Virus record (IMG/VR): IMGVR_UViG_3300021135_000003
From: a virus
Strand: one strand, 5' to 3'
Length of the DNA stretch: 64,000 bases
The notes beneath the pieces are model-generated. The model made no database searches. It saw only the letters and a list, made by a program, of their open reading frames with translations, and was not told the origin of the DNA. A program made the position numbers and the translations under genes. Shown in pieces: positions 32,261 to 45,026 of the stretch (positions within the stretch are counted from its first letter, which is position 1; every line of letters starts with the position of its first letter).

Positions 32261-35200
32261 ATGCTAGACTTTAATACCGAACCGTATAATGATGATTACG
32301 ATCCTGCGAAACAATTTTATAGAATTTTGTATCGTCCTTCGTTTGCTGTTCAGGCTCGAGAACTTACTCAAATGCAGAGTATTCTGCAGAATCAAATTAA
32401 AACCCATGGCGATAATATCTTTAAAAATGGTGCCATGGTTATTCCTGGACAGGCTTCCATTCAAGCTGATGGCCAGCCAGGTGGTGGAGCAGACTACGTA
32501 AAACTTATTCCTGTTTATTCAAACGTAGCAGTTGAAACTTTCTTATCAGCATTAAATGGTCAAACTATTATTGGCCAAACTACTGGTCTTACTGCAACTG
32601 TTACTTACTGCCAAAGCGCAGAAAATGATGATCCAACTACATTATATCTAAATTATACTGGACCAACACCAACAGGTTCTACTACTGCTAAAACTTTTGG
32701 TATTAATGAAGTATTAAAAACTTCTGATGGAACATATACATTCCAAATTGGTTCTACTTCTGACTGTGTTGGTAAAGGTTCTTTAGCAAGTATTCAACAG
32801 GGTGTTTATTATATCAACGGATATTTTGTTCTTTGCACACAACAAACTATCGTTCTTGACAAATATACAACTACTCCAACATATCGTATTGGTTTAGTTT
32901 ATACAGAATCTATTGTTACACCAGAATCAGATGAAACTCTTTTAGATAATGCTCAAAACTCATATAACTATGCTGCTCCAGGTGCACATCGTTATATGAT
33001 TGATTTGACTTTAACTAAACTTACAATTGATTCAACTTCTGATACAAATTTCGTTGAAGTTATCCGTGTAACAAATGGTAAAATTAATACTATTGTTCAA
33101 GACACTGCTTATAATACAATTTACAATCAAATTGAAACTGAAATCCAAAGAAGAACATATGATACTAATGGTGATTATACTGTTAGTGGTTTTGACATTG
33201 ATGTTCGTGAACACCGCAATAATAATCGCGGAACTTGGACTACAAACACAGCATATTTAATCGGCGACGTTGTTACTTACAACGGTAATATTTACACTGC
33301 ATTAAATACTACTACTTCTATTACCACTCCTCCAACACATACTTCTGGTTCTGCTTATGATGGATCAAGCACAACAGGTGTAAATTGGCAATATACTACA
33401 AACCCAATTTATAATCGTGGTATTAATTTAGATGGCAATGAAAATCAATTAGCCATTGGTATTGAAGCTGGTAAAGCATATGTTCAGGGTCATGAGATTG
33501 AAAAGACTGCTGTAACATATATTCCAGTTAATAAAGCTAGAGATTTTGTTCAAACTACTAACTCAGTTATACCAGCAACAGTTGGTAACTATGTTCTTGT
33601 TACAAACGTAAATAACCTACCTCCAGTTGATACATATGCAAACGTAATTTTGTATAACTACATTACTGGTGGTACTGTTGGTACTTCTCCAAGTGGAGCA
33701 ACAGCAGTTGGTACTGCTCGTGTTCGTGTAATGGAATACCATAGTGGTTTACCATTTAGTTCTTCAACTATCTACAAGTTAAGTTTATTTGATGTTCAGA
33801 TGAACTCTGGATATAAGTTTAACACAGATGTAAAATCTTTTGTATATGCAGTTGGTTCTGCCGCAACATCATTTAGCGCAGATATTAGCCCAATCACTAA
33901 TCAATTGATTGGTTCAGTTACTGCTTCTGGCACAACAGTTAATGGTACAGGAACATCATTCTTAACTGATTTAGCAGTTAATGATCTAGTTCAAATTTCA
34001 GCTTCTGGTTCTAGCTACTATCGTAGAGTAGTATCAATTACTAACCAAAACGCAATTGTTGTTGATTCTTCTGTTACTGTTACAGGAGCAACAATTATCA
34101 AATGTACTACTCAGATTGCTGAGCCAGAGAATATTTCCCTAATATTCCCATTACCTTACTACGCAATTCGTAGCGTTAAGGGTGTTGGTTCAAGTGGTGT
34201 TAATAATACTACTTACGTTTGCTATCAAAAGTTTACACAAAACGCATCTGGTACAACTTTAAATTTAAGTACTTCTGGTACATTTGCCTCTGCAGCAGAT
34301 AGCACACATTATGCTTGTTATGATAATACTACTGGTGTTGTATTCACTCCAATAACTATCCTACCAGTTGGAAGTAACGCAACCATTACTGTTCCTTCTG
34401 CACAATCAGGACACTCTATTACTGTTATTGCAACAGTTCAACGTAATGGTTCTGGCTTCGAAAAGACTAAAACATTATATACAGTCTCTGAAACCTTTAC
34501 TACTGCTGCAGCTGCACAAGCAGCTGTCGTTTATCTAGATAAAGCAGACGTATTCCAAATCGTAAGCGTAACAATGGCCACTGGTGCTGCATTTGGCACT
34601 ACTCCAGCTTCCACTGCTTATACTACTGATATTTCAGATCGTTATAGTTTTGACAATGGTCAGCGTAATACCCACTATGACTGGGGCTCATTAACATTAC
34701 TTCCATCTTTTGCTGCCCCATCAAATCCAATTAAAGTAACGTATCAATATTTTGAACATACTTCTGGTGACTATTTTGATGTTAACTCATACTATAACCC
34801 ATTAGTTGCTAACTCTGGTATTGACTATAAACTTATTCCTGCAAATTTAAGAGACGCTATTGACTTCCGTCCTCGTGTTGCAAATAGAAGTTTTGCTGTT
34901 GCTTCAGGTGGATCAAACTTTATGGCATATAAGAACTTTACTCAAACAGGTTCTAGTTACTCAGCTATGCCGAAACGAGGTGAATCTATTACTGCTGATT
35001 ACAGTTATTATCTTGCTCGTAGAGATAAAGTTGCTGTTGACTTAAATGGTAATATTTTTGATATCAATGGTGTTTCTTCTGTAACTCCAGGATATCCAGT
35101 TGATCCAGCATTGGGTATGGTTCTCTACACACTAGATTTACAACCATATACGTTTGGAACAACTTCTACAAACGTATCAGTTTCTAAAATTGATAATAAG

Positions 35201-38200
35201 CGTTACACAATGCGTGATATTGGTAAATTAGAATCACGTATCAATACACTTGAGTATTATACTTCTCTTTCTTTATTAGAGCAAGAAACTCAATCAATGA
35301 AGATCACTGACTCTAAAGGTCTTGATCGCATGAAAAATGGTTTCGTTGTTGATAACTTTGCTGGTAATAATCTTGGAGATAGCACAAATCCTGACTATTT
35401 CTGTTCTGTTGATATGGAAAGCAATCAATTGCGTCCATTCTATACAATGTATAACGTAAACCTGTTAGAGAAATTCTCTACTAATACATTACGTTCTGGG
35501 GCAAATTATCAGTTAACTGGTGATATTATTACATTACCTTACACAACTACTCCATTAATTACTCAGTCGTATGCTTCTCGTTTAGAGAATATTAACCCAT
35601 TTGCTATCTTTACTTTCTTAGGTTCAGTACAATTAAATCCACCAACAGACGATTGGTTTGAAACTGCTCGCTTACCTGATATTATTCAGCAAGTAGAAGG
35701 TAACTATAATATGGTTGCCCTTATGGCTGAGAAAGCTGGTGTTCTTGGTACTGTTTGGAATGCTTGGCAAACTGAATGGACTGGTCAACCAGTAAGCACA
35801 GGAACAACAACTTATGTTGGTGATAAACGTGGCGTTGGTGTTGCATCTTGGAGAGATGGAACTGTTTCTAATACTGATGCAAGTCAACTCGATGCTACCT
35901 TTGGTGGTGGTCCACAATCTCCATTAGGTGGCTGGGCTCACCGTCAAGTTACTGTTGAAACAACTGCAGTTGCTATCGGACAATCTAGAAGTGGTGTTAA
36001 TACATCTATTGCTCTTAAAACTGATTATCAGCAAGTTGATGATGTTGTAGTTTCTACTGCGCTTATCCCTTATATCCGTTCAAGAAATATTCTTGTTCAA
36101 GCGCATAAATTAAAACCAAACACTAAATTCTATCCATATTTTGATGGTCTTGATATTAGTGCTTTCTGCATTCCAGCTATTAAAATTATTATAAGTGGCG
36201 TAACTGGAACATTTGATACATCATCAAATGTTGGTGCTCAGGCTTCAGATCCAAAACGTAGAATCGCAAATGATGTTCAAGTTTGTTTAAATGCAGGCGA
36301 TGTTATTTCTAATGGTACTGGTGGTTCAGCTGTTGTTGTTAATTCATATATTGATGGTAATGGCAATAAATGTTTAAGCGTTGTTAATATTATTGGAACT
36401 TTATCTGGTCCAACTATTGTAGGTGGTATTTCTATTCCAGGTGATAGTATTACTGGTTCTTACAGTGGAGCTACTGCTACTATCGTTTCAGTAACACCAC
36501 AATCAACTTTAACAACTACTGCTTCTGGTGACCTTGAGTTCTTATTTAATATTCCTAATACTGATTCTGTTCGTTTCCGCACTGGTTCTCGTGAATTGAA
36601 ACTTGTTGATTCTAGCACATATGCTGGTAACTATACATCACGTGGTATTGCTACATATGAAGCTACTGGTACTTTAACAACTAAACAAGCTACTATTAAT
36701 GCAGTTCGCAATGCTACTTTAGTTCAAGAACAAGTTAGTGATAATCAAGTTATTCATCAATCTGGTCCAGATCGTGTTCTTTCCGATACTGGTTGGTATG
36801 ATCCTCTTGCGCAATCATTCTTAATTCAACAAAAGGGTGGCGCATTCTTAACAAGTATTGATATTTTCTTTGCAACTAAAGATGCCAATATTCCAGTAAC
36901 ACTATCAATTCGTGAAATGATCAATGGTGCTCCTGGAAAACGAATCCTACCATTTAGTACTGTTACTAAGTTCCCTGCTGATGTTAACTTATCTGCAAAC
37001 ACAGTAACTACTGCTGATGGTAATACTTACCCAACATTCGATACGCCAACTACATTTACTTTTGATTCTCCAGTTTACGTTCAAGACACAACTGAGTATT
37101 GTTTCGTTCTACAATCAGACTCAAACAGCTATAATGTTTGGATCTCTTATATGGGCGACACAATTCCAGGTTCAGGTAGAACAATTTCTGAACAACCATA
37201 TGCTGGTGTAATGTTTAAGTCTCAGAACGCATCTACTTGGACACCTGATCAAAGTGCTGATATTAAGTTTACAATTAATAGAGCAGTATTTAATACTTCT
37301 GTTGTTGCTGATGTAGAATTTGTTAATGATGTTCTACCATACGATAATCTTGACACAGATCCGTTTGAAACTACAAGTGGTTCTAACTTAGTTCGAGTTT
37401 GGCATTATGATCATGGTATGCCAGTGGGATCAACTGTTGATATTTCAGCAGTCAATGCAAATGATCCAGGAACTGGAACTATTACTACTTCTATTTCAAG
37501 TAGCACTGTTACTGGTGTTGGAACTACATTTACTACTCAAGCTATTGTTGGAACAAACCTGTATAGCGCACAAGATGTTTATATCGGTACTGTTACTGCG
37601 GTTGGTAGCGATACTTCATTAACTCTATCGGCCAATGCTACTATTGCTTTACCTGCTGGATCTACTTTCCAATATGTTGGACCTGTTAATGGTATCCCTG
37701 CTAATCAGGTATTTAAACAATCAATTATCTCTAACGTAGATTTAAACTCATACACAATTACTACAACTGCTAATGCTACTTTAACTGGTTATACTGGTGG
37801 GACTTTAATTCGTGCGTCTAGAAATATTGAATTTGACACAGTAAATCCATCTGTTCAGATTCAGTCATTCTCTGATACAACATCTTCTTTTGCAGTTAAA
37901 ACTACTTCTGGTAAGTCAGTTGATGGTAGTCAAACACCATATGTTGTTGATAGTAGTTTTACTCCATGTTTAATTAAACAGAATAATGATTTTGGTTCTC
38001 CAAGAATGATTGCTTCTGAATGGAATGAAGGTGCTAATATTGGTGGTTCTAAGAGTTTAACTTTCTCTGCTGCTCTTCAAACATCGAATGATGCTGTATC
38101 TCCAGTAATTGATACAACTAGAACAAGTTTGATTGCAGTTAAGAATATTCTTAATTACCCAACTGAATCTAATACTAACGTGGCAGCAATTGATACTGTA

Positions 38201-38848
38201 ACTTCGTTTACTGGATCTACTGGCGCATTTACTTTTAATGCGGGCGGAACTCTTACTTCTACTATTGCTGGCGTTAGAACTGCAATGTCTTCTATCGGTA
38301 TCGGTAAATATGTAACTATTGCTAATGCTACTACTAGCACCAACAATGGAACATTCTTAGTTACTGGCTTCACAGACGATGGTACTACTGGCACCCTTAC
38401 ATTGAATACCACGTTTACTGGAGAATCTGCTGTTACTTCTGGTACTGTAACTACGGTTTCTGCTCGTGTATTATTCGCTGATGAAATTGCTCCAATCGGC
38501 GGAACTACTGCAAGTAAATATGTAACTACTCCTATTAAGTTTGCCAACGCATCGACTTATATGAAAGTTATGATTACTGCAAATATCCCTGCTGAAGCTG
38601 ATGTTGGTGTATTTTATAAAACAGTTACTGGTGATAGTGCTCAACTAAAGTATGCTAAATATACTAAAATGACACCAGATTCACCTATCGTTAAGGTAGA
38701 TAATGGTAATAATACTTTTACTGATATTACCTATACATTGACTGGTATACAATCGTACGATACGGCAACAATTAAAATCGTTATGAATTCTTCGAATTCT
38801 GCTGCAGTACCGATTATTAAGGACTTCAGAGTAATCGCTTGCCCATAA
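32261..38848 (+). CDS. Large virion structural protein (VrlC/DUF4815-like)
   Basis: PYNDDYD..FYRILYRP..VQARELTQMQSILQNQ, KRYTMRDIGKLE, DPLAQSF, PIIKDFRVIA. Confidence 0.85.
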   Translation: MLDFNTEPYNDDYDPAKQFYRILYRPSFAVQARELTQMQSILQNQIKTHGDNIFKNGAMVIPGQASIQADGQPGGGADYVKLIPVYSNVAVETFLSALNGQTIIGQTTGLTATVTYCQSAENDDPTTLYLNYTGPTPTGSTTAKTFGINEVLKTSDGTYTFQIGSTSDCVGKGSLASIQQGVYYINGYFVLCTQQTIVLDKYTTTPTYRIGLVYTESIVTPESDETLLDNAQNSYNYAAPGAHRYMIDLTLTKLTIDSTSDTNFVEVIRVTNGKINTIVQDTAYNTIYNQIETEIQRRTYDTNGDYTVSGFDIDVREHRNNNRGTWTTNTAYLIGDVVTYNGNIYTALNTTTSITTPPTHTSGSAYDGSSTTGVNWQYTTNPIYNRGINLDGNENQLAIGIEAGKAYVQGHEIEKTAVTYIPVNKARDFVQTTNSVIPATVGNYVLVTNVNNLPPVDTYANVILYNYITGGTVGTSPSGATAVGTARVRVMEYHSGLPFSSSTIYKLSLFDVQMNSGYKFNTDVKSFVYAVGSAATSFSADISPITNQLIGSVTASGTTVNGTGTSFLTDLAVNDLVQISASGSSYYRRVVSITNQNAIVVDSSVTVTGATIIKCTTQIAEPENISLIFPLPYYAIRSVKGVGSSGVNNTTYVCYQKFTQNASGTTLNLSTSGTFASAADSTHYACYDNTTGVVFTPITILPVGSNATITVPSAQSGHSITVIATVQRNGSGFEKTKTLYTVSETFTTAAAAQAAVVYLDKADVFQIVSVTMATGAAFGTTPASTAYTTDISDRYSFDNGQRNTHYDWGSLTLLPSFAAPSNPIKVTYQYFEHTSGDYFDVNSYYNPLVANSGIDYKLIPANLRDAIDFRPRVANRSFAVASGGSNFMAYKNFTQTGSSYSAMPKRGESITADYSYYLARRDKVAVDLNGNIFDINGVSSVTPGYPVDPALGMVLYTLDLQPYTFGTTSTNVSVSKIDNKRYTMRDIGKLESRINTLEYYTSLSLLEQETQSMKITDSKGLDRMKNGFVVDNFAGNNLGDSTNPDYFCSVDMESNQLRPFYTMYNVNLLEKFSTNTLRSGANYQLTGDIITLPYTTTPLITQSYASRLENINPFAIFTFLGSVQLNPPTDDWFETARLPDIIQQVEGNYNMVALMAEKAGVLGTVWNAWQTEWTGQPVSTGTTTYVGDKRGVGVASWRDGTVSNTDASQLDATFGGGPQSPLGGWAHRQVTVETTAVAIGQSRSGVNTSIALKTDYQQVDDVVVSTALIPYIRSRNILVQAHKLKPNTKFYPYFDGLDISAFCIPAIKIIISGVTGTFDTSSNVGAQASDPKRRIANDVQVCLNAGDVISNGTGGSAVVVNSYIDGNGNKCLSVVNIIGTLSGPTIVGGISIPGDSITGSYSGATATIVSVTPQSTLTTTASGDLEFLFNIPNTDSVRFRTGSRELKLVDSSTYAGNYTSRGIATYEATGTLTTKQATINAVRNATLVQEQVSDNQVIHQSGPDRVLSDTGWYDPLAQSFLIQQKGGAFLTSIDIFFATKDANIPVTLSIREMINGAPGKRILPFSTVTKFPADVNLSANTVTTADGNTYPTFDTPTTFTFDSPVYVQDTTEYCFVLQSDSNSYNVWISYMGDTIPGSGRTISEQPYAGVMFKSQNASTWTPDQSADIKFTINRAVFNTSVVADVEFVNDVLPYDNLDTDPFETTSGSNLVRVWHYDHGMPVGSTVDISAVNANDPGTGTITTSISSSTVTGVGTTFTTQAIVGTNLYSAQDVYIGTVTAVGSDTSLTLSANATIALPAGSTFQYVGPVNGIPANQVFKQSIISNVDLNSYTITTTANATLTGYTGGTLIRASRNIEFDTVNPSVQIQSFSDTTSSFAVKTTSGKSVDGSQTPYVVDSSFTPCLIKQNNDFGSPRMIASEWNEGANIGGSKSLTFSAALQTSNDAVSPVIDTTRTSLIAVKNILNYPTESNTNVAAIDTVTSFTGSTGAFTFNAGGTLTSTIAGVRTAMSSIGIGKYVTIANATTSTNNGTFLVTGFTDDGTTGTLTLNTTFTGESAVTSGTVTTVSARVLFADEIAPIGGTTASKYVTTPIKFANASTYMKVMITANIPAEADVGVFYKTVTGDSAQLKYAKYTKMTPDSPIVKVDNGNNTFTDITYTLTGIQSYDTATIKIVMNSSNSAAVPIIKDFRVIACP

Positions 38849-38849
38849 T

Positions 38850-39074
38850 ATGAAATATTTGAAAGTTGCGGGACACGCTGGTTTAGTTAGAGATACCACG
38901 ACTGGCGCAATCCTAAATACTAATAAGAGTGAATATGAGGAATATATCGCTAGACAGCGTGAAGCTGAGGAGCGAGAAGCTGAAATTTCTCAACATACTG
39001 AAGATATAAATAACATTAAGAACGAATTGCAGGACATTAAATCATTGCTTCTTCAAATATTGAAAAAAGATTGA
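38850..39074 (+). CDS. Small conserved protein (coiled-coil C-term) following VrlC-like gene
   Basis: KVAGHAGLVRDTTTGAILN..EY, heptad tail. Confidence 0.7.
   Translation: MKYLKVAGHAGLVRDTTTGAILNTNKSEYEEYIARQREAEEREAEISQHTEDINNIKNELQDIKSLLLQILKKD
39005..39012 (+). promoter_or_regulatory. T4 consensus late promoter TATAAATA upstream of the NC-tailed fiber
   Basis: Exact TATAAATA about 80 nt before ATG 39091. Confidence 0.65.
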
Positions 39075-39090
39075 CCAAAGGAAACCTTAA

Positions 39091-40293
39091 ATGGCAAACA
39101 TAACATCCGCATCTATTACGCTAAGATCTTCTAAAGGAAGCCCTCTTACTAATACAGAAGTAGATAATAACTTCTCAAACATTAATACAGCCCTTGCGAC
39201 TGGTCTTACTGCAGCTAGTTATACTGCAGCAGACGTATTATCAAAATTAAACTCTGTTTCTGGACCTACTCAAGCTGGTGGTGTAAACGCTGATACTGTG
39301 ACCTTTGCGTCTGGTGCTCGTTCTGCTACTAACTTGGCTACTGGTAATACTATCGTTGCTCGCGACAGTTCTGGAAATTTCTCTGCTACTACGATTACTG
39401 CTAACTTAACTGGAACTGCCTCTGTTGCTTCTAGTTTAAACTATACAGTGGCTATTTCTGGTGGTGGTACTGGTGCTACTGACGCTGGTACTGCTCGTAC
39501 TAACCTTGGACTTGCTATTGGTTCAAACGTACAAGCATATAGCGGAACTCTTGCTGCATTAGCTGGTACAACTACTGCTACTGATACTTTACCATACTAC
39601 ACTGGAGCAGGAACTGCGTCAACCACTACTTTTGGTTCTTATGGAAGAACATTAGTTGGTTCTGCTGATGCTCCTACTGCTCGTAGTAATCTTGGTCTAG
39701 TTATTGGCACTAACGTACAAGCATATGACGCAACATTAACTTCATTGGCTGGTTCTGGAACTGGTATTTTAGTTAAAACAGGTACTGGTACAACTGCTCC
39801 TCGCTCACTTGCTGCTGGCACAGGTATTACTATTAGTAACGCTGATGGTACTGGTGGTAACCCAACGATCTCCGTTACATCTTATGTTTCTTCTGTACAA
39901 GGAGCAATAGGTGCTGTTATTGTTTCTGTTCCTGTTACATCCGTTCAAGGTAGCATTGGTGGTGTTATTGTAACAAACATCTCTGGTTCTGCTGGATATG
40001 CTACTAATGCTGGTTATGCTACTAATGCTGGTTACGCTGGAAACTCTGGCGGTGGTTGGCCAGGTTCTCTATCGCAGTTTTCCAATAACTTAGGTAACTA
40101 TGGCGCATGGGTTCCGCATAACCAAAAATATGGTCAACAGCGTATGTCTGGTTTTGGACCATATTCTGGAGGGCAGGGTAACTGTGGTAATAATCCATAT
40201 GGTCCAGTTGCGTATATTTACTTGGATACTGGCTCTGCTATGAATGCTGGTTGGTACCATCAAAATTGTCACAACTGTAACTGTAACTGCTAA
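39091..40293 (+). CDS. Tail-fiber-like protein with Cys/Asn-rich C-terminus (NCHNCNCNC)
   Basis: KGSPLTNTEVDNNF N-term, two ARxNLGL..GxNVQAY repeats, GYATNA repeats; all five Cys lie in the last about 36 aa. Confidence 0.8.
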   Translation: MANITSASITLRSSKGSPLTNTEVDNNFSNINTALATGLTAASYTAADVLSKLNSVSGPTQAGGVNADTVTFASGARSATNLATGNTIVARDSSGNFSATTITANLTGTASVASSLNYTVAISGGGTGATDAGTARTNLGLAIGSNVQAYSGTLAALAGTTTATDTLPYYTGAGTASTTTFGSYGRTLVGSADAPTARSNLGLVIGTNVQAYDATLTSLAGSGTGILVKTGTGTTAPRSLAAGTGITISNADGTGGNPTISVTSYVSSVQGAIGAVIVSVPVTSVQGSIGGVIVTNISGSAGYATNAGYATNAGYAGNSGGGWPGSLSQFSNNLGNYGAWVPHNQKYGQQRMSGFGPYSGGQGNCGNNPYGPVAYIYLDTGSAMNAGWYHQNCHNCNCNC

Positions 40294-40304
40294 GGATAAA
40301 AATA

Positions 40305-41141
40305 ATGGCAATAATTAAAAAAATTAAACCTGTAGCTCAGTATTTTCCAGAGTTATTTACTGGAAAAAATCATACAATAAATTATATTTTTAATATAACA
40401 GAAGATGTATTGAACTTACAAATAACTAGAACTAAAACAACTGAAGAAGAAGATGTAGTTTTATACGCATTTTCTCTTTCGTTAGACGTATTAAAATCAA
40501 GTTCTCGACTTTCTGATCATTCATATTGGACTTTTGGTAATGTAAATTTACACCCAATTGATGGATATGTACAAAATTTAACTGTTGCTAATTTGTTATC
40601 AATTTTTGATAAAACATTTGCAACTAAACCAAAAATATTAGTGAATGAACAATTAGGTGGTGCTGAACTTGATTACAAGTTTCCTGTTAGAATATTCGTT
40701 CCTTCTTATAATTCAAAATTTACTGATTGTACATTTTTAGTTGCTAAATTTGATCAGTTACAACCTACAGATGATTCTCCGCCTGTAAACGATCCATATA
40801 ATATTAGTATAACAGTAGATGTAAATTCTCCAAATACATTTGTTGATGAATTTACTACTGCTTCTGAATTATTGGGAACAGTAACTTCTTCAACTACTCT
40901 TACCGATGTTTCTGCTGGTACCACAATTCCTGTTACTGTAACATGTTCAGATATTTCTGTTTCTATATTGTATCTTGAATCTGTGTGTGGTATTCTAGAT
41001 AGAAATCAAGTAAAAATGACAAATGGTTCTGGAACATTTAATGTTTTAACAAATACGTTAGAATCAGGCGATACTGTAGAGATTAAAATTGGATATAAAA
41101 AATATTCTAATGTTAATACCTTTACTAAAACATTAGCATAA
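40305..41141 (+). CDS. Hypothetical protein (possible fiber partner; beta-rich C-term)
   Basis: 278-aa ORF with SD AAGGA between fiber and radical SAM gene. Confidence 0.6.
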   Translation: MAIIKKIKPVAQYFPELFTGKNHTINYIFNITEDVLNLQITRTKTTEEEDVVLYAFSLSLDVLKSSSRLSDHSYWTFGNVNLHPIDGYVQNLTVANLLSIFDKTFATKPKILVNEQLGGAELDYKFPVRIFVPSYNSKFTDCTFLVAKFDQLQPTDDSPPVNDPYNISITVDVNSPNTFVDEFTTASELLGTVTSSTTLTDVSAGTTIPVTVTCSDISVSILYLESVCGILDRNQVKMTNGSGTFNVLTNTLESGDTVEIKIGYKKYSNVNTFTKTLA

Positions 41142-41159
41142 ATATTTTTATACTATGTT

Positions 41160-41193
41160 AATCCCACTATAACATAGTGGGATTTTTCTTTTT
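41160..41193 (+). terminator. Intrinsic terminator-like hairpin upstream of radical SAM gene
   Basis: AATCCCACTAT-AAC-ATAGTGGGATT followed by a T-rich tract. Confidence 0.7.
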
Positions 41194-41209
41194 ATACTCG
41201 GAATAAACT

Positions 41210-42604
41210 ATGGCCAAATTTGAAATTACCGCACATAATCCTTTAACCAAAGATACACGTAAAATAATTTACGATTCTTCTAGAAGTACATTGAAATGGG
41301 AAGATGGTACTGATCTAGTAGATTTTCCAAAAACACCAACAATTATTGCAGAAAAACAAATTAAAATTCAGCAAGGCAAGCGCGACTTATCAACAATAAA
41401 AATTCAGCTTGGTCTTTCGTGTAATTTTGAATGTGATTATTGTAATCAAAGATTTGTACCCCACGCAGATTCAACTAATCCAGACGATGTATTTCCATTT
41501 GTTATGAATATGTCAACCTGGTATAAAGGTGGGGAAGATGGCCAAGGTAAAGGAACTAAAATTGAATTTTGGGGTGGAGAGCCATTCGTTTATTGGAAAA
41601 CAATGAAACCTCTTGCTGAAATGATAAGGATGCGATACCCTAATGCAGAATTTGGAGTTATTACAAACGGTAGTCTGTTGGACCAAGAGAAAAATGATTG
41701 GTTAGAAAAACTAAATTTCTCTGTTTCAGTATCACATGATGGTCCAGGTCAATTTGTTCGTGGTCCAGATCCATTATTAGATACTACCTCAAAGGCAGGT
41801 ATTATAGATTTATATAAAAGACTTGCGCCAAAACAACGATTTAGTTTTAATTCCATGATTAATAGTAAGAATATTAGTCGTGTTGATATTGAAGCATTTT
41901 TTGTAAAATTTGTTGTCGATGAAATTGGACCAACATACTTAAATCATCTTATGATAGGTGAGGGTACTTTTGTTGATGCCTATGATGAAGGTGGATTGGC
42001 TAATTCATTATTAGACGAGGAAGAAGATATTGCATTTAGAAATAAATCTTTAATGGATTTACGTTCTGGTAATGCAATGAAGTTTGGTACAATTCATGAT
42101 AAAGTAAAGGGTTTTATTGCATCACTAGAAACGAGAATCCCTCTTGAAGTTGTTACTCAAAAGTGCGGTATGGACAAACCTGAGAATATTGCGATTGACT
42201 TAAATGGTAACGTGTTAACCTGCCAAAATGTAAGCACAGCTTCGATTAATCCTGCAGGTGTTTCTCATCATATTGGCCATGTTTCTAATCTGGAAGCAGT
42301 TGATTTAAAAACATCAACTCACTGGAGTGATAGAGAAGAATGCCCAAATTGTCCAGTAGTTCATATTTGTAAAGGTGCTTGTATGTTTCTTTCTGGAGAA
42401 CTTTGGGAAGCATCTTGTAATAATGCCTTTAGTGATAATATAACTGTACTAACAATCGCTATAGAGATTCTTTCCAAGGGATATGTTCTTGGTTATATTG
42501 AAGGACCATTACGTCAAGATAGAAAAGATGTTTACTGGTGGATGAATGGTAAACCAGAAAATACTCGTAAAGCAAAAAAAGTAATCTCAATTATGGCAGT
42601 ATAA
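41210..42604 (+). CDS. Radical SAM enzyme with SPASM domain
   Basis: CNFECDYC (CxxxCxxC), FWGGEP, ITNG, SHDG; SPASM Cys: CGM...TCQN...CPNCPVVHICKGAC...C. Confidence 0.93.
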   Translation: MAKFEITAHNPLTKDTRKIIYDSSRSTLKWEDGTDLVDFPKTPTIIAEKQIKIQQGKRDLSTIKIQLGLSCNFECDYCNQRFVPHADSTNPDDVFPFVMNMSTWYKGGEDGQGKGTKIEFWGGEPFVYWKTMKPLAEMIRMRYPNAEFGVITNGSLLDQEKNDWLEKLNFSVSVSHDGPGQFVRGPDPLLDTTSKAGIIDLYKRLAPKQRFSFNSMINSKNISRVDIEAFFVKFVVDEIGPTYLNHLMIGEGTFVDAYDEGGLANSLLDEEEDIAFRNKSLMDLRSGNAMKFGTIHDKVKGFIASLETRIPLEVVTQKCGMDKPENIAIDLNGNVLTCQNVSTASINPAGVSHHIGHVSNLEAVDLKTSTHWSDREECPNCPVVHICKGACMFLSGELWEASCNNAFSDNITVLTIAIEILSKGYVLGYIEGPLRQDRKDVYWWMNGKPENTRKAKKVISIMAV

Positions 42605-42605
42605 G

Positions 42606-42899
42606 ATGGAATCATTCATTAAAGGGTATCTTTTTGAAATTAATGGATTCCCAAGAAATAACGATCTTTTTACGATAAAAGATTATTTTTATTACGAATC
42701 AAATACACCAGAATATGGGTATAGAGACACAATTATCCCACGAGAACTTGTTATAAATAATGATGAAATTCCAGATGAAGGTATCATAAGAGAACTTATA
42801 AATAAAGGTATATTCTCTATGAAAAGGTCAATTGACCTAAATAAACAAACAGAAACGTGGTTTTTTGAAACTAAGTGTTTAAAGGAAATAAACAAATGA
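42606..42899 (+). CDS. Hypothetical protein
   Basis: 97-aa ORF immediately after radical SAM stop. Confidence 0.5.
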   Translation: MESFIKGYLFEINGFPRNNDLFTIKDYFYYESNTPEYGYRDTIIPRELVINNDEIPDEGIIRELINKGIFSMKRSIDLNKQTETWFFETKCLKEINK

Positions 42900-43843
42900 C
42901 AACCAAACATGTAAAATGGGTTATTGCCCACGAGCCAATCGGCTTATTTTTGAAAGTTGCAGAAGCATTTTCTGCTGAAGTTAACGAGAAAACTAATGGT
43001 GCATTTAACATCGAAGTTCTTTCTTTAACTGACTATACTAACAAGTATAATGCTGGTAAGAAAATTACCAAGAATGAACTAATGGAGTTGGTTGATAATG
43101 GCACTATCGAAATGAGCCATATCTACACTACTTGGTTGGCTGATTACAATAAAGATCTTCATGCTTTAGATCTACCATTCCTATTCCGCGATCATGATCA
43201 CGCTAATGCAGTTTTAGAAGGCGAGATCGGTGCTGAGTTATTAGCAGGTGTTGCTAAGAATTCTAATACTCACGCTATGTCTTTCACTTACTCTGGTGGA
43301 TATCGTGTTGTTCCAGCTAACTTCCGTGCTGATACTGTAGAAGCATGGCAAGGTCAAACAGTTCGTACTTCTCGTAGCCCAGTTGCTGTTGAAACTTTCA
43401 AACTTCTTGGTGCTGAGCCAAAAGAGCATATCGCTCTTGAGGAAATGAATGAATTTGCAGATCGCGGTGAGATCGCTGCTGGTGAGTCTACTTACGTACG
43501 TATTTTCCCACTAGATCAATATAAGTCTTTCAAAGTTGTTAATGATACAGCACACAGCTTGTTCTTGACTTCTATTATCGTTAATAAAGATTTCATGAGC
43601 CAGTTTGATGATGAGACTCAAGAGATTATGGCTACTGCTGCATTCAATGCTGCTCGTAAAGAGCGTCGCGAATCAGTTGCTGATATTCCTAACATTCTTG
43701 CAGAATGTGAAGCCAAAGGTGTTGAAGTTGTTCGTATGTCTGCTGAAGAAGAAAGTAAGTTCAAACAAGTTACTTCTAAGGTATATGAGAAATTTGCTGA
43801 TTACTTCACTCCAGGTTTGGTTCAGAAGATTCAGTTACATTAA
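42896..43843 (+). CDS. dctP: TRAP-type (DctP-like) solute-binding protein lacking a signal peptide
   Basis: LDLPFLFRDHDHA, GGYRVV, conserved Arg in TVRTS, LGAEP, TAHSLF; SD AAGGA; CTAAATA at 42837-42843. Confidence 0.82.
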   Translation: MTTKHVKWVIAHEPIGLFLKVAEAFSAEVNEKTNGAFNIEVLSLTDYTNKYNAGKKITKNELMELVDNGTIEMSHIYTTWLADYNKDLHALDLPFLFRDHDHANAVLEGEIGAELLAGVAKNSNTHAMSFTYSGGYRVVPANFRADTVEAWQGQTVRTSRSPVAVETFKLLGAEPKEHIALEEMNEFADRGEIAAGESTYVRIFPLDQYKSFKVVNDTAHSLFLTSIIVNKDFMSQFDDETQEIMATAAFNAARKERRESVADIPNILAECEAKGVEVVRMSAEEESKFKQVTSKVYEKFADYFTPGLVQKIQLH

Positions 43844-43865
43844 TTGTAATTAATGCCTAAATATG

Positions 43866-43892
43866 AGGGAGCTTCGGCTCCCTTTTTATTTT
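43866..43892 (+). terminator. Intrinsic terminator with UUCG loop
   Basis: AGGGAGC-TTCG-GCTCCCT then TTTTATTTT. Confidence 0.88.
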
Positions 43893-43902
43893 GAAAGATA
43901 TT

Positions 43903-44967
43903 ATGAATAAACCAAAACATCCAGAAATTTTATATTATGATGTAAATAATGTATCAAAATATATGAAAGGACGTCCTGAAGATTTAATAAATTTTTCAGT
44001 TGAACGTAACGCTCAAACATATTTTGAATTGTATGAACTCTTTGGATTAAACAAGTATAATGTTGTCTACGATAGAACTGGGAACTTACCCCATTATCTT
44101 AGAATGGTTCCAGATTTATATCCAATACCAGATGCAGATATAAGTTATAATAAATCATTCTTTGAAGTAACAGAACAAAGATGTAAAGAATTACTTGCTC
44201 TAAACAAACCAATAAATGTTATGTGGTCTGGTGGTATTGATAGCACCTTTGTTTTGTTTATGTTACATTATTTTGCAAACGATAAAGATCAAGTTCGAGT
44301 TTGTGGGACTTATAATTCTATAATAGAATCTGGGGATATGTTTGACAGAAAAATTAAACATATGTTCAACCATAAGATAACAATCCCATTTACTAATGAG
44401 ATTAATTACCAAGAAGATGGGATCTATGTAAGCGGAATGTGCGGGAATCAGTTATTTGGTCCAACTGATGATATGTTTGCAACAGGTGGACCAGCAATGT
44501 TCCACCACACTCTTGGCACAAAAGAAACCATATATGAGCCGTATGAGAAAAATGTTGATCAAAAATTCTTGGAATTTTTAGATCCAGCGATCAAAGCCAG
44601 CCCAAGAAAACTTGAAACTGTCGCAGATTTACGATGGTATTGCATTTTTAATTTAGATTGGTATACTGCAGTTTATGAACATAAGATACGATTAGAACCA
44701 TCTAAGGCGGAGAAGATTCATGGGTTTTTTAATTCCATCGAATTTCAAAAATGGGCAGTAAATACTAAAGAGCCGTTCACAAAGATAAGAGGGGATTCAA
44801 CTACTCATCGATGGCAGATGAGAGAAATCCTTAAAGATCTATTTGGTGAAGAACATTATGCATTAAACAAAACGAAAAAGATATCTAATTTTGGAATCAA
44901 TCAGCAGAACTGGATTTTTCTACTAGAAGGATATCATAATGTTTTTGTCGACCAAGATGCAAACTAA
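43903..44967 (+). CDS. Asparagine-synthetase-like PP-loop ATPase (adenine nucleotide alpha-hydrolase)
   Basis: VMWSGGIDST and VSGMCGNQLFG (cf. AsnB SGEGADELFG); no glutaminase domain. Confidence 0.7.
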   Translation: MNKPKHPEILYYDVNNVSKYMKGRPEDLINFSVERNAQTYFELYELFGLNKYNVVYDRTGNLPHYLRMVPDLYPIPDADISYNKSFFEVTEQRCKELLALNKPINVMWSGGIDSTFVLFMLHYFANDKDQVRVCGTYNSIIESGDMFDRKIKHMFNHKITIPFTNEINYQEDGIYVSGMCGNQLFGPTDDMFATGGPAMFHHTLGTKETIYEPYEKNVDQKFLEFLDPAIKASPRKLETVADLRWYCIFNLDWYTAVYEHKIRLEPSKAEKIHGFFNSIEFQKWAVNTKEPFTKIRGDSTTHRWQMREILKDLFGEEHYALNKTKKISNFGINQQNWIFLLEGYHNVFVDQDAN

Positions 44968-44985
44968 GTCCCAACTTCCGTATCT

Positions 44986-44993
44986 TATAAATA
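44986..44993 (+). promoter_or_regulatory. T4 consensus late promoter TATAAATA
   Basis: Exact match 34 nt before ATG 45027. Confidence 0.7.
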
Positions 44994-45026
44994 AAGAGGT
45001 ATAAGAATAGTGTTTAGGATGGGTCA

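What the first reader, a model, noticed from the sequence alone, without database searches (positions are those of the whole stretch)
39005..42604. Candidate RiPP-like system modifying a virion fiber: NCHNCNCNC-tailed fiber next to a radical SAM/SPASM enzyme
Seen: a 400-aa tail-fiber-like protein has no Cys until its last about 36 residues, where all five Cys occur as Asn-Cys (GNCG...QNCHNCNCNC-stop). Two genes later is a radical SAM enzyme with CxxxCxxC and a 7-Cys SPASM domain. Both sit in the tail module behind late-promoter motifs (TATAAATA 39005, ATAAATA 41138). Established: SPASM enzymes form Cys-to-carbon thioethers in peptides (sacti/ranthipeptides; NxxcB links Cys to the Asn beta-carbon in NxxC; QhpD crosslinks the protein QhpC), and NCNCNC contains overlapping NxxC motifs. 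Inference: the phage crosslinks or metallates its fiber tip, a RiPP-type core fused to a structural protein, to build or stabilise a receptor-binding tip. An alternative is that the trimeric Cys tail simply binds metal or an Fe-S cluster.
Basis: partly seen in the sequence, partly recalled or inferred. Interest (0 to 1): 0.92.

Follow-up and report, generated by a model that had tools for sequence, protein, structure and literature searches.

The report
Phage fibre tail matured by radical-SAM enzyme
This T4-like phage has a tail-fibre protein ending in repeated asparagine-cysteine pairs, and a radical-SAM enzyme of the peptide cross-linking kind that almost never occurs without such a tail, so phages probably modify a fibre end chemically, a step I found in no paper.

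Summary
The 400-aa fibre (39091-40293) has five Cys, all in its last 36 residues and all preceded by Asn. The second gene downstream (41210-42604) is a radical SAM/SPASM enzyme with exactly 3+7 cluster cysteines.

- Of 119 homologous rSAM loci with at least 4 kb upstream, 115 carry a same-strand protein with an Asn-Cys repeat, nearly always at its exact C-terminus. Three of the four exceptions carry shorter or truncated versions.
- In reverse, 16 of 18 ORFs ending NCNCNC have the rSAM downstream.
- None of 27 related fibres without such a tail has it.

The closest solved fold is the thioether synthase CteB (Z 20.2). The sulfatase maturase anSME is next (Z 16.9).

The recognised unit is the Asn-Cys dipeptide, not NxxC: 87% of isolated tail Cys have Asn at -1.

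An Ig-like protein (40305-41141) co-occurs in about 80% of well-covered loci. 2OG oxygenases occur in about half and an Asn-synthetase-like enzyme in a subset. Some phages expose the repeat through a self-cleaving Hint domain.

The chemistry is untested; I think Cys thioether cross-links most likely. The complex prediction gave no answer. This scan reported the same system earlier on other DNA. Eight literature searches found no description.

The parts
39005..39012 (+). TATAAATA, a T4-late-promoter-like octamer 79 nt upstream of the fibre ATG, inside the preceding 74-aa virion-protein gene
   Evidence: Exact match. The octamer is not enriched in the window (5 found, 10.4 expected), so this is a plausible promoter only.
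39091..40293 (+). Tail-fibre protein (400 aa) with an Asn-Cys tail. It is the proposed substrate.
   Evidence: PHROG tail-fibre and structural families (phrog_697 3e-15, phrog_24210 1e-12). It belongs to the gene cluster found in 116 of 164 rSAM loci.
40180..40290 (+). Cys-bearing C-terminal segment (residues 364-400), holding GNCGN, LDTG and the terminal NCHNCNCNC
   Evidence: All five Cys lie here and all follow Asn. The layout is conserved in relatives.
40264..40290 (+). Terminal Asn-Cys repeat (residues 392-400, NCHNCNCNC) ending at the stop codon
   Evidence: In 124 of 135 related proteins the repeat lies within 8 residues of the C-terminus.
40305..41141 (+). Co-conserved partner 'MID' (278 aa), an all-beta tandem Ig-like protein with a conserved C-terminal Big_1-like domain and a variable N-terminal part
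   Evidence: Present in 117 of 164 loci. AlphaFold model pLDDT 87. Best fold matches are intimin D00-D0 and invasin InvE. A paralogue gives a weak Big_1 hit.
41137..41144 (+). cATAAATA, 7 of 8 of the late-promoter octamer, overlapping the MID stop codon
   Evidence: By my reading of the spacers printed, an xATAAATA motif lies at the same place in about 19 of 30 distinct spacers of relatives.
41160..41194 (+). Terminator-like hairpin (11-bp stem, 3-nt loop) with a T-run, between MID and the rSAM
   Evidence: By my reading, about 27 of 30 distinct MID-to-rSAM spacers hold a stable hairpin (-11.6 to -21 kcal/mol) with differing stem sequences.
41210..42604 (+). Radical SAM/SPASM enzyme (464 aa), the proposed maturase of the Asn-Cys tail
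   Evidence: phrog_1802, 6e-63. AlphaFold model pLDDT 84. CteB is the best fold match.
41210..41314 (+). N-terminal three-stranded beta-sheet (residues 1-35), possibly a reduced substrate-docking element
   Evidence: DSSP strands at 3-10, 15-22 and 27-30, with block-mean pLDDT 91-94 over residues 1-30. The CteB and TigE alignments start at model residue 1; the anSME alignment starts at residue 59.
41420..41443 (+). CX3CX2C motif (C71, C75, C78) for the SAM-binding [4Fe-4S] cluster
   Evidence: Invariant in 24 sequences.
42164..42418 (+). SPASM domain with seven invariant Cys (C319 to C403)
   Evidence: TIGR04085, 34 bits against a cut-off of 27, residues 319-394. Invariant columns.
42606..42899 (+). 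97-aa protein of unknown function that follows the rSAM in this phage lineage
   Evidence: Found in 26-27 loci. It stays with the block when the rSAM moves to the end of the cassette (L050, L051).
42875..43843 (+). DctP-family TRAP solute-binding protein homologue. It is lineage-specific, and its membership in the system is uncertain.
   Evidence: Pfam DctP 3.6e-40. Found in 26-27 loci.
43865..43894 (+). Second terminator-like hairpin with a T-run, after the DctP gene
43891..44967 (+). Asn-synthetase-like PP-loop enzyme (358 aa, SGGIDS motif), a possible accessory tailoring enzyme
   Evidence: ESM Atlas neighbours are named asparagine synthase family. Found in 30 loci, including the distant Polynucleobacter prophage L145.

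Best explanation
The window carries a conserved phage cassette for maturing the end of a fibre protein. The fibre's C-terminal tail of Asn-Cys units is the substrate of the neighbouring radical SAM/SPASM enzyme.

Proposed mechanism, in order:
1. The enzyme docks the unassembled fibre tail, possibly through its small N-terminal beta-sheet.
2. A tail Cys thiolate binds the open iron of an auxiliary [4Fe-4S] cluster.
3. Reductive cleavage of SAM gives 5'-deoxyadenosyl radical, which abstracts a hydrogen from a neighbouring residue.
4. The sulfur is joined to that carbon as a thioether. Asn at -1 is the likeliest acceptor or recognition residue.
5. Repeating this along the tail gives a redox-insensitive, rigid, possibly inter-chain cross-linked end of the trimeric fibre.

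The Ig-like MID protein is a co-evolving structural partner or assembly factor for that end. In other phages 2OG-Fe(II) oxygenases add further tailoring steps, and here an Asn-synthetase-like enzyme may do so.

Shown: the gene pairing, the enzyme class and the tail grammar. Inferred: that the tail is the substrate (I put this at about 0.8) and that the product is a thioether (about 0.45).
For: Forward association:
- Of 164 rSAM-homologue loci, 119 have at least 4 kb upstream. Of these, 115 carry a same-strand ORF with (xC) repeated three or more times and including NC.
- The four exceptions are L001, ending TNCQCGN; L007 and L008, ending INCRNCNC; and L096, where the fibre gene is cut by a deletion.
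- In 124 of 135 such proteins the repeat lies within 8 residues of the C-terminus.

Reverse association:
- A DNA pattern for NCNCNC-stop was searched in IMG/VR. Of matches that end an ORF of at least 60 aa with at least 5 kb downstream, 16 of 18 have the rSAM downstream on the same strand. With 2.5-5 kb downstream the figure is 6 of 7.

Negative control:
- Fibres that share this fibre's shaft repeats but lack the tail have the rSAM in 0 of 27 cases.

Independent genomic backgrounds:
- JWF-like siphoviruses and Burkholderiales prophages carry the cassette beside a lambda-J-type central fibre gene.

Tail grammar in 98 non-redundant tails:
- 712 of 804 Cys lie in the last 70 residues.
- 74% of tail Cys follow Asn, although Asn makes up 14.9% of the tails.
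- 87% of 212 isolated Cys follow Asn. A pure metal site would not need this.

Exposed C-terminus:
- Five loci place a Hint domain directly after the repeat. In JWF, Pfam Hom_end_hint scores 47.5 bits against a cut-off of 32.1 and begins at the Cys that follows the repeat. This implies that a free C-terminus after the repeat matters.

Enzyme:
- The best NCBIfam hits are peptide maturases: PapB, the nif11 maturase, YhhB, DynA and QhpD.
- The best fold match is CteB, Z 20.2 over 344 residues, with the N-terminal region inside the aligned range.
- Only seven SPASM Cys are present, so two auxiliary [4Fe-4S] clusters cannot both be fully Cys-ligated. This resembles CteB, which has an open iron, and differs from anSME, which is fully ligated (review PMC8326336).

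Chemical precedent:
- NxxcB links a Cys to the beta-carbon of an Asn that lies N-terminal to it.
- PapB accepts an acceptor residue adjacent to the donor Cys (PMC12373016).
Against: - There is no biochemical or proteomic evidence for any modification.
- anSME, which oxidises Cys to formylglycine, is nearly as close in fold (Z 16.9).
- All curated RiPP-maturase models are far below their cut-offs, for example PapB at 58 bits against 340. The chemistry therefore cannot be transferred by homology.
- The N-terminal extension lacks the helices of a true RRE.
- A terminator-like hairpin separates the rSAM from the fibre and MID genes, so they need not be strictly co-transcribed.
- Relatives have His-rich stretches just before the repeat, and some tails end in CC or CCC runs. 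These features fit metal binding.
- The MID protein and the oxygenases are not explained mechanistically.
Confidence: 0.6

Rival explanations
1. The rSAM does act on the Asn-Cys tail, but it does not make thioethers. It might oxidise Cys to formylglycine as anSME does, or make another modification with Asn at -1 as the recognition element. The result would be reactive aldehydes or altered side chains at the fibre end.
For: anSMEcpe is among the top fold matches (Z 16.9, 313-316 residues). anSME is a SPASM enzyme that acts on whole proteins and recognises a short motif around its target Cys (established knowledge; review). The strict Asn at -1 rule for isolated Cys looks like a recognition motif.
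Against: NCBIfam anSME TIGR03942 scores only 34.5 bits against a cut-off of 349, below many RiPP maturases. The enzyme has seven rather than eight auxiliary Cys ligands, whereas the auxiliary clusters of anSME are fully Cys-ligated. The sulfatase motif C/S-x-P/A-x-R is absent from the tail.
Confidence: 0.15
2. The Asn-Cys tail, with the His-rich stretch in relatives, is simply a metal or Fe-S binding site on the three-fold axis of the trimeric fibre. This would be analogous to the metal-binding His motifs of T4 fibre proteins. The rSAM would then have another substrate, such as MID, a small molecule or a host component, or would only help to load the metal.
For: The Cys alternation puts all thiols on one face of a strand. 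Tails of relatives carry HHHH runs just before the repeat, or end in CC, CCC or CCGCC. Metal ions bound by His in T4 fibre tips are a structural precedent; I cite this from my own knowledge and did not test it here.
Against: A metal site does not explain why 87% of isolated Cys need Asn at -1. It also does not explain why the rSAM tracks the tail so tightly in unrelated phages. No rSAM/SPASM enzyme is known to act as a metal chaperone; that statement rests on my own knowledge.
Confidence: 0.12
3. The tail is the core of a true RiPP. It is cut off the fibre-like 'leader' and released as a small bioactive peptide.
For: Some loci encode small proteins of 81-156 aa with the tail. L052 has three such genes in tandem. 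That resembles multi-precursor RiPP clusters.
Against: None of the recurrent gene clusters named is a protease or a transporter. The 'leaders' carry fibre motifs or are full fibres of 300-1000 aa. The cassette always sits among tail genes.
Confidence: 0.05
4. The neighbourhood is inherited synteny without a functional link.
For: Many of the loci are related T4-like phages. RSP15 shares a wider module with the window, including the giant structural protein at 31-32% identity.
Against: The pair recurs beside unrelated tail genes in siphovirus-type phages and prophages. Gene order changes, with the rSAM moved to the end of the block in L050 and L051. Fibres with the same shaft but no tail lack the enzyme.
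Confidence: 0.03

Closest known systems
CteB / SCIFF (CteA) ranthipeptide system (PDB 5WGG, 5WHY)
   Same: It is the best structural match (Z 20.2, 344 aligned residues, with the N-terminal region inside the aligned range). Both are SPASM enzymes with two auxiliary clusters. Both have Cys-rich C-terminal substrates. Neither can fully Cys-ligate both auxiliary clusters.
   Different: Sequence identity is 14-16%. The SCIFF maturase model TIGR03974 scores 36.8 bits against a cut-off of 425. CteB has a full RRE and this enzyme has only a three-stranded sheet. The substrate here is a 400-aa virion fibre rather than a peptide of about 45 aa. The Cys grammar is Asn-Cys with a spacing of two.
PapB / freyrasin (NCBIfam NF047865)
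   Same: It is the top NCBIfam hit (7e-16). It makes several thioethers along a repeat, and the acceptor may be adjacent to the donor Cys (PMC12373016).
   Different: The score is 58 bits against a cut-off of 340, and only the N-terminal half aligns. PapB needs an acidic acceptor on the C-terminal side of the Cys. Here the conserved partner is Asn on the N-terminal side.
NxxcB / NxxcA (Streptococcus orisratti)
   Same: It is the only known enzyme that links Cys sulfur to an Asn beta-carbon lying N-terminal to the Cys (review PMC8326336).
   Different: Its motif is N-x-x-C with a single link. In this family Asn is enriched at -1 and not at -3.
QhpD / QhpC (quinohemoprotein amine dehydrogenase)
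   Same: It is a radical SAM/SPASM enzyme that installs Cys thioethers in a protein subunit rather than in a released peptide. It gives a weak NCBIfam hit, TIGR03906, at 1.6e-11.
   Different: The score is 43.5 bits against a cut-off of 453. Its acceptors are Asp and Glu, and its substrate is an enzyme subunit rather than a virion part.
Anaerobic sulfatase-maturating enzyme (anSMEcpe, PDB 4K36-4K39)
   Same: It is the second tier of fold matches (Z 16.9). It is a SPASM enzyme that acts on Cys within a short motif of a whole protein.
   Different: It has eight auxiliary Cys ligands and a C/S-x-P/A-x-R motif, and it makes formylglycine. TIGR03942 scores 34.5 bits against a cut-off of 349. It has no N-terminal sheet.
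CXXX-repeat radical-SAM systems in phage tail-fibre modules
   Same: The theme is the same: a phage rSAM sits next to a Cys-repeat fibre-associated protein.
   Different: It is a different rSAM family with a Cys spacing of four and many more Cys. TIGR04115 is not among the 25 best NCBIfam hits of this enzyme. I did not compare them further here.

Membership tests
Radical SAM superfamily (PF04055) | CX3CX2C motif for the SAM-binding [4Fe-4S] cluster, and a Pfam score above the gathering cut-off | tested here: met
   C71, C75 and C78 are invariant in 24 sequences. PF04055 scores 30.0 bits against a cut-off of 29.5.
SPASM-domain rSAM enzymes (TIGR04085) | Seven-Cys pattern CX9-15GX4C, gap, CX2CX5CX3C, gap, C | tested here: met
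   C319-X13-G333-X4-C338, C378-X2-C381-X5-C387-X3-C391 and C403 are all invariant. TIGR04085 scores 34 bits against a cut-off of 27.
Ranthipeptide and sactipeptide maturases (PapB NF047865; SCIFF/CteB TIGR03974) | A score above the curated family cut-off | tested here: not met
   PapB scores 58.3 bits against 340. TIGR03974 scores 36.8 bits against 425.
Ranthipeptide and sactipeptide maturases | The overall fold of CteB, including an N-terminal substrate-binding domain | tested here: inconclusive
   Z is 20.2, with model residues 1-423 aligned to CteB residues 2-448. However, the N-terminal part of the model has three strands and no helices, so it is not a complete RRE.
Ranthipeptide and sactipeptide maturases | An auxiliary cluster with an open iron for the substrate thiolate | tested here: inconclusive
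   Only seven auxiliary Cys exist, and the window protein has no other Cys. This is compatible with an open site as in CteB. A non-Cys ligand cannot be excluded.
Ranthipeptide and sactipeptide maturases | A thioether product (-2 Da per link) | not testable with these tools
   This needs mass spectrometry of co-expressed substrate.
Anaerobic sulfatase maturase (TIGR03942) | A score above the cut-off, eight auxiliary Cys ligands, and the substrate motif C/S-x-P/A-x-R | tested here: not met
   The score is 34.5 bits against 349.45. There are seven auxiliary Cys. The tail holds no CxPxR or CxAxR.
NxxcB-type Asn-x-x-Cys system | The acceptor Asn lies three residues before the donor Cys | tested here: not met
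   For 212 isolated tail Cys, Asn is at -1 in 87%. Asn is not among the five commonest residues at -3, the fifth of which is at 8%. In the window only C398 and C400 have Asn at -3.
QhpD (TIGR03906) | A score above the cut-off | tested here: not met
   43.5 bits against 453.
Phage tail fibre | Similarity to fibre families and a position in a tail module | tested here: met
   phrog_697 at 3e-15, phrog_24210 at 1e-12 and three further tail-fibre PHROGs. The flanking genes are gp5-, gp6- and wedge-like baseplate genes and other fibres. Presence in the virion was not tested.
Hint/intein-like autoprocessing domain (variants in JWF, phage 2-1, L073, L115, L141; not in the window) | A Hint module that starts with Cys directly after the repeat | tested here: met
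   In JWF, PF05203 scores 47.5 bits against 32.1 at residues 308-344. Cleavage itself was not tested.

The most novel reading that the evidence does not exclude
Phages of several unrelated kinds share a dedicated enzymatic pathway that installs an undescribed covalent modification on Asn-Cys units at the extreme C-terminus of a virion fibre protein. The pathway consists of a radical SAM/SPASM enzyme, often with 2OG oxygenases or an Asn-synthetase-like enzyme, plus an Ig-like partner. The modification could be an adjacent-residue or inter-chain Cys-Asn thioether. This would be a RiPP-type maturation logic applied to a structural virus protein and needed to build or stabilise the host-contact end of the fibre.
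Probability: 0.5. Interest if true: 0.88.

Novelty: new variant of a known kind. Interest (0 to 1): 0.8.

Why it matters
Radical SAM/SPASM maturases are known from secreted peptide natural products and from a few enzyme subunits. A phage-encoded one dedicated to a tail-fibre protein would have two consequences:
- It would add an enzymatic, covalent step to virion assembly, alongside self-cleaving chaperone domains and capsid cross-links.
- It would add a new substrate grammar, the Asn-Cys dipeptide, to thioether or Cys chemistry.

The family is large. It has 489 clusters at 50% identity with E up to 1e-30. It occurs in cultivable phages (JWF, 2-1, RSP15), so the question can be tested directly by co-expression and mass spectrometry. 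It also bears on attempts to express or engineer such fibres: without the enzyme the fibre end may be immature.

Tried and rejected
- Complex prediction of the rSAM (alignment A2) with the 70-aa fibre tail (A4), three 4Fe-4S clusters and SAM. The verdict was no answer, with run scores of 0.01, 0.57 and 0.00. This counts neither for nor against binding.
- Megablast of 38800-45000 against isolate phages found no match.
- ESM Atlas on fibre residues 290-400 gave only low scores, and the Atlas model of the whole protein has pTM 0.20. Nothing was learned about the fold of the tail.
- Hydrophobic-phase analysis of the strand before the repeat gave no clear phase. I dropped the idea that the Cys face is demonstrably core-facing.
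- The idea that the JWF-type middle gene (c23) is a diverged MID was rejected: hhalign probability was 0.2%.
- Pfam and PHROGs gave nothing for c23, for the 97-aa protein or for the small Asn-Cys proteins.
No expression or read-level test could be run.
- The fringe family member P0258 is a tandem rSAM fusion in a multi-rSAM locus that is cut off upstream. It is uninformative about the substrate.
- Eight literature searches and six papers opened found no description of an rSAM acting on a phage fibre. The JWF record only calls the gene 'anaerobic sulfatase-maturating enzyme'.

Full report
ANATOMY. The finding lies in the baseplate and fibre module of a T4-like myovirus. Upstream are homologues of the tail-tube cap, the gp5-type hub lysozyme and the wedge subunits, followed by a 2195-aa structural protein (phrog_358). 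More fibre-like proteins lie downstream. The genes of interest are all on the + strand:
- a 74-aa virion protein (38850-39074, phrog_473);
- the 400-aa fibre (39091-40293);
- a 278-aa protein that I call MID (40305-41141);
- the radical SAM/SPASM enzyme (41210-42604);
- a 97-aa protein (42606-42899);
- a DctP-family solute-binding homologue (42875-43843);
- a 358-aa PP-loop protein (43891-44967).

OBSERVATION. The fibre has five Cys, at residues 365, 393, 396, 398 and 400. All follow Asn, and the protein ends NCHNCNCNC. Shuffling only its last 40 residues reproduces 'every Cys after Asn' with P about 5e-5. No other of the 180 six-frame ORFs in the window has such a tail. The rSAM has exactly ten Cys. 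Three form CX3CX2C and seven form the canonical SPASM pattern, and all ten are invariant across 24 homologues. TATAAATA at 39005 is exact, but the octamer is not over-represented in the window. The 41138 site is cATAAATA over the MID stop codon. A strong terminator-like hairpin (41160-41184, 11 bp plus a T-run) lies between MID and the rSAM.

THE ENZYME. It belongs to phrog_1802. Its best NCBIfam matches are peptide maturases (PapB, the nif11 maturase, YhhB, DynA, QhpD, SCIFF and others). anSME and MoaA score lower, and every curated model is far below its cut-off, so this is a subfamily of its own. The AlphaFold model has pLDDT 84. Its best structural match is the thioether synthase CteB (Z 20.2, 344 residues, aligned from model residue 1). 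ChlB (17.6), TigE (17.1) and anSME (16.9, aligned from residue 59) follow. Residues 1-35 form a confident three-stranded sheet without the helices of a full RRE. With only seven auxiliary Cys, two [4Fe-4S] clusters cannot both be fully Cys-ligated. [quoted passage not shown]

CO-OCCURRENCE. The family is large. It has 2774 clusters at 90% identity with E up to 1e-10, and 489 clusters at 50% identity with E up to 1e-30. I collected 164 loci: 80 IMG/VR contigs, 80 contigs from species-representative genomes (mostly Burkholderiales prophages such as Limnohabitans, Polynucleobacter and Burkholderia), three isolate phages (RSP15, JWF, 2-1) and the window itself. Three tests were run.
- Forward. Of the 119 loci with at least 4 kb upstream of the rSAM, 115 have a same-strand ORF with (xC) repeated three or more times and containing NC. 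In 124 of 135 such proteins the repeat is within 8 residues of the C-terminus. The four exceptions are shorter or damaged versions: RSP15 ends TNCQCGN, L007 and L008 end INCRNCNC, and L096 has a deletion inside the fibre gene.
- Reverse. I scanned IMG/VR for DNA encoding NCNCNC-stop. Of matches ending an ORF of at least 60 aa with at least 5 kb downstream, 16 of 18 have an rSAM homologue downstream on the same strand. With 2.5-5 kb downstream the figure is 6 of 7.
- Control. Fibres that share the window fibre's shaft repeats but end differently have the rSAM in 0 of 27 cases with at least 5 kb downstream.
RSP15 shares a wider module with the window, including the giant structural protein at 31-32% identity. 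The JWF-like siphoviruses and the prophages place the cassette beside a lambda-J-type central fibre, which is an independent background.

TAIL GRAMMAR. In 98 non-redundant tailed proteins, 712 of 804 Cys lie in the last 70 residues. Of these tail Cys, 74% follow Asn, although Asn makes up 14.9% of the tails. For 212 Cys with no other Cys within two residues, Asn is at -1 in 87% and is not enriched at -3. In the window only two of the five Cys have Asn at -3. Terminal repeats have 3-7 xC units, and x is Asn in 75%, Asp in 9% and Ala in 6%. Many T4-like relatives have His-rich runs just before the repeat, and many prophage tails end in extra CC, CCC or CCGCC. In five loci a Hint domain starts at the Cys directly after the repeat. 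In JWF, Hom_end_hint scores 47.5 bits against a cut-off of 32.1. Self-cleavage would leave the repeat at a free C-terminus, which matches the position it has everywhere else.

ACCESSORY GENES. I clustered all same-strand ORFs of the 164 loci.
- MID occurs in 117 loci, and in 96 of the 119 well-covered ones.
- An unrelated 232-291-aa protein (c23, JWF gp029-like) takes MID's place in 19 loci. hhalign probability against MID is 0.2%.
- 2OG-FeII_Oxy_5 oxygenases occur in 88 loci and 2OG-FeII_Oxy_3 oxygenases in 36. Both score above their Pfam cut-offs. Neither is in the window.
- The Asn-synthetase-like PP-loop protein occurs in 30 loci, including the distant Polynucleobacter prophage L145.
MID is a confidently modelled all-beta tandem Ig-like protein (pLDDT 87). 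It is closest to intimin and invasin domains. Its C-terminal Big_1-like domain is conserved and its N-terminal part is fast-evolving. It therefore looks structural or adhesin-like, not enzymatic and not an RRE. Some loci have small tailed proteins instead of long fibres. L052 has three in tandem (81-87 aa), followed by two MID paralogues, three oxygenases and the rSAM.

TRANSCRIPTION SIGNALS. By my reading, about 27 of 30 distinct MID-to-rSAM spacers in T4-like relatives hold a stable hairpin (-11.6 to -21 kcal/mol). The stems differ in sequence, and about 19 of the 30 spacers carry an xATAAATA motif. This suggests a conserved terminator, attenuator or 5' stabiliser that sets enzyme expression apart from the abundant structural genes. 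That reading is inference.

MECHANISM. I think the following most likely.
1. The rSAM acts on the unassembled fibre tail.
2. A tail thiolate binds the open auxiliary iron.
3. 5'-deoxyadenosyl radical abstracts a hydrogen from a neighbouring residue, and a thioether forms. Asn at -1 is the acceptor or the recognition residue.
4. Repeated along the tail, this gives a rigid, redox-insensitive and possibly inter-chain cross-linked fibre end.
Two precedents exist separately. NxxcB uses an Asn acceptor on the N-terminal side of the Cys. PapB accepts an acceptor adjacent to the donor Cys. I put the substrate relationship at about 0.8 and thioether chemistry at about 0.45. The rivals are anSME-like Cys oxidation, a plain metal or Fe-S site, a released RiPP, and mere synteny.

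COMPARISON AND NOVELTY. The system works like a ranthipeptide or QhpD-type Cys cross-linking system, but it is a member of none of the curated families. Its substrate is a virion fibre and its Cys grammar is new. Eight full-text searches and six opened papers gave no description. This scan has already reported the same system on other DNA (e1-5633109, e1-3503543, e1-5358319), and also a thematically related CXXX-repeat system in giant phages. My tests were run independently and agree with those reports. New here, as far as I can tell from those summaries, are:
- the reverse test and the negative control;
- the Asn at -1 rule, as against Asn at -3;
- the Hint junctions;
- the census of accessory genes;
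- the conserved spacer hairpin.

LIMITS. No experiment, proteome or read data bear on the modification. The complex prediction gave no answer. The fold of the tail could not be modelled.

Noticed in passing
window 41160-41194; spacers of L004-L066: A stable hairpin lies in the MID-to-rSAM spacer. By my reading it is conserved in structure but not in sequence in about 27 of 30 distinct spacers, and about 19 of 30 carry xATAAATA. It may be a terminator, an attenuator or a 5' mRNA stabiliser.
   Followed up: partly
window 42875-43843: A DctP-family TRAP solute-binding homologue with no obvious signal peptide sits inside the fibre module. It is 85-92% identical in many relatives whose rSAMs are only about 57-75% identical to the window's. 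Its role in a phage is unexplained.
   Followed up: no
window 43891-44967; L145 9504-10709: An Asn-synthetase-like PP-loop enzyme (SGGIDS motif, no glutaminase domain) travels with the cassette in the T4-like lineage. It also lies three genes after the rSAM in a distant Polynucleobacter prophage. It may be a tailoring enzyme.
   Followed up: partly
L052 1868-6000: Three tandem small proteins (84, 81 and 87 aa) each end in NCNC[A/N]CNC. They follow a fibre with a Peptidase_S74 self-cleaving chaperone domain. Two MID paralogues, three 2OG oxygenases and the rSAM come next.
   Followed up: partly
L002 4706-6157, L003 4808-6250, L141 4733-6262, L073 3013-4437, L115 4262-5392: These fibre proteins carry a Hint (intein-like) domain that begins at the Cys right after the Asn-Cys repeat. 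Self-cleavage would expose the repeat, and possibly a thioester intermediate, at the new C-terminus.
   Followed up: partly
L147 3025-3930, L152 3037-3750: In this variant the Asn-Cys gene lies downstream of the rSAM. The repeat is followed by an extension that runs on for at least 102-174 aa (SKIICAKLY...). L147 has no Pfam match.
   Followed up: no
L012, L017, L022, L066 fibre tails: His-rich runs (for example HLDTNHHFDPHHHH) lie directly before the Asn-Cys repeat in many T4-like relatives. This suggests metal binding in the same C-terminal domain. The window's tail has only three His in its last 45 residues.
   Followed up: no
L145 6552-6947; L142 6527-6982: Small proteins (131 and 151 aa) lie directly upstream of the rSAM. 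Their C-terminal halves are almost entirely Asn-Cys-rich, with about 20 Cys. In L142 the repeat is followed by an acidic Gly/Asp tail.
   Followed up: no
L355 877-5608: A fringe family member is an 800-aa fusion of two rSAM domains. Two further rSAM genes and a c23-like gene precede it, and the substrate region is cut off.
   Followed up: partly
window 32261-38848 and L001 8427-13274: The 2195-aa structural protein (phrog_358) has a 31-32% identical homologue directly after the rSAM in Ralstonia phage RSP15. The cassette therefore travels with this giant protein in two otherwise different myoviruses.
   Followed up: partly
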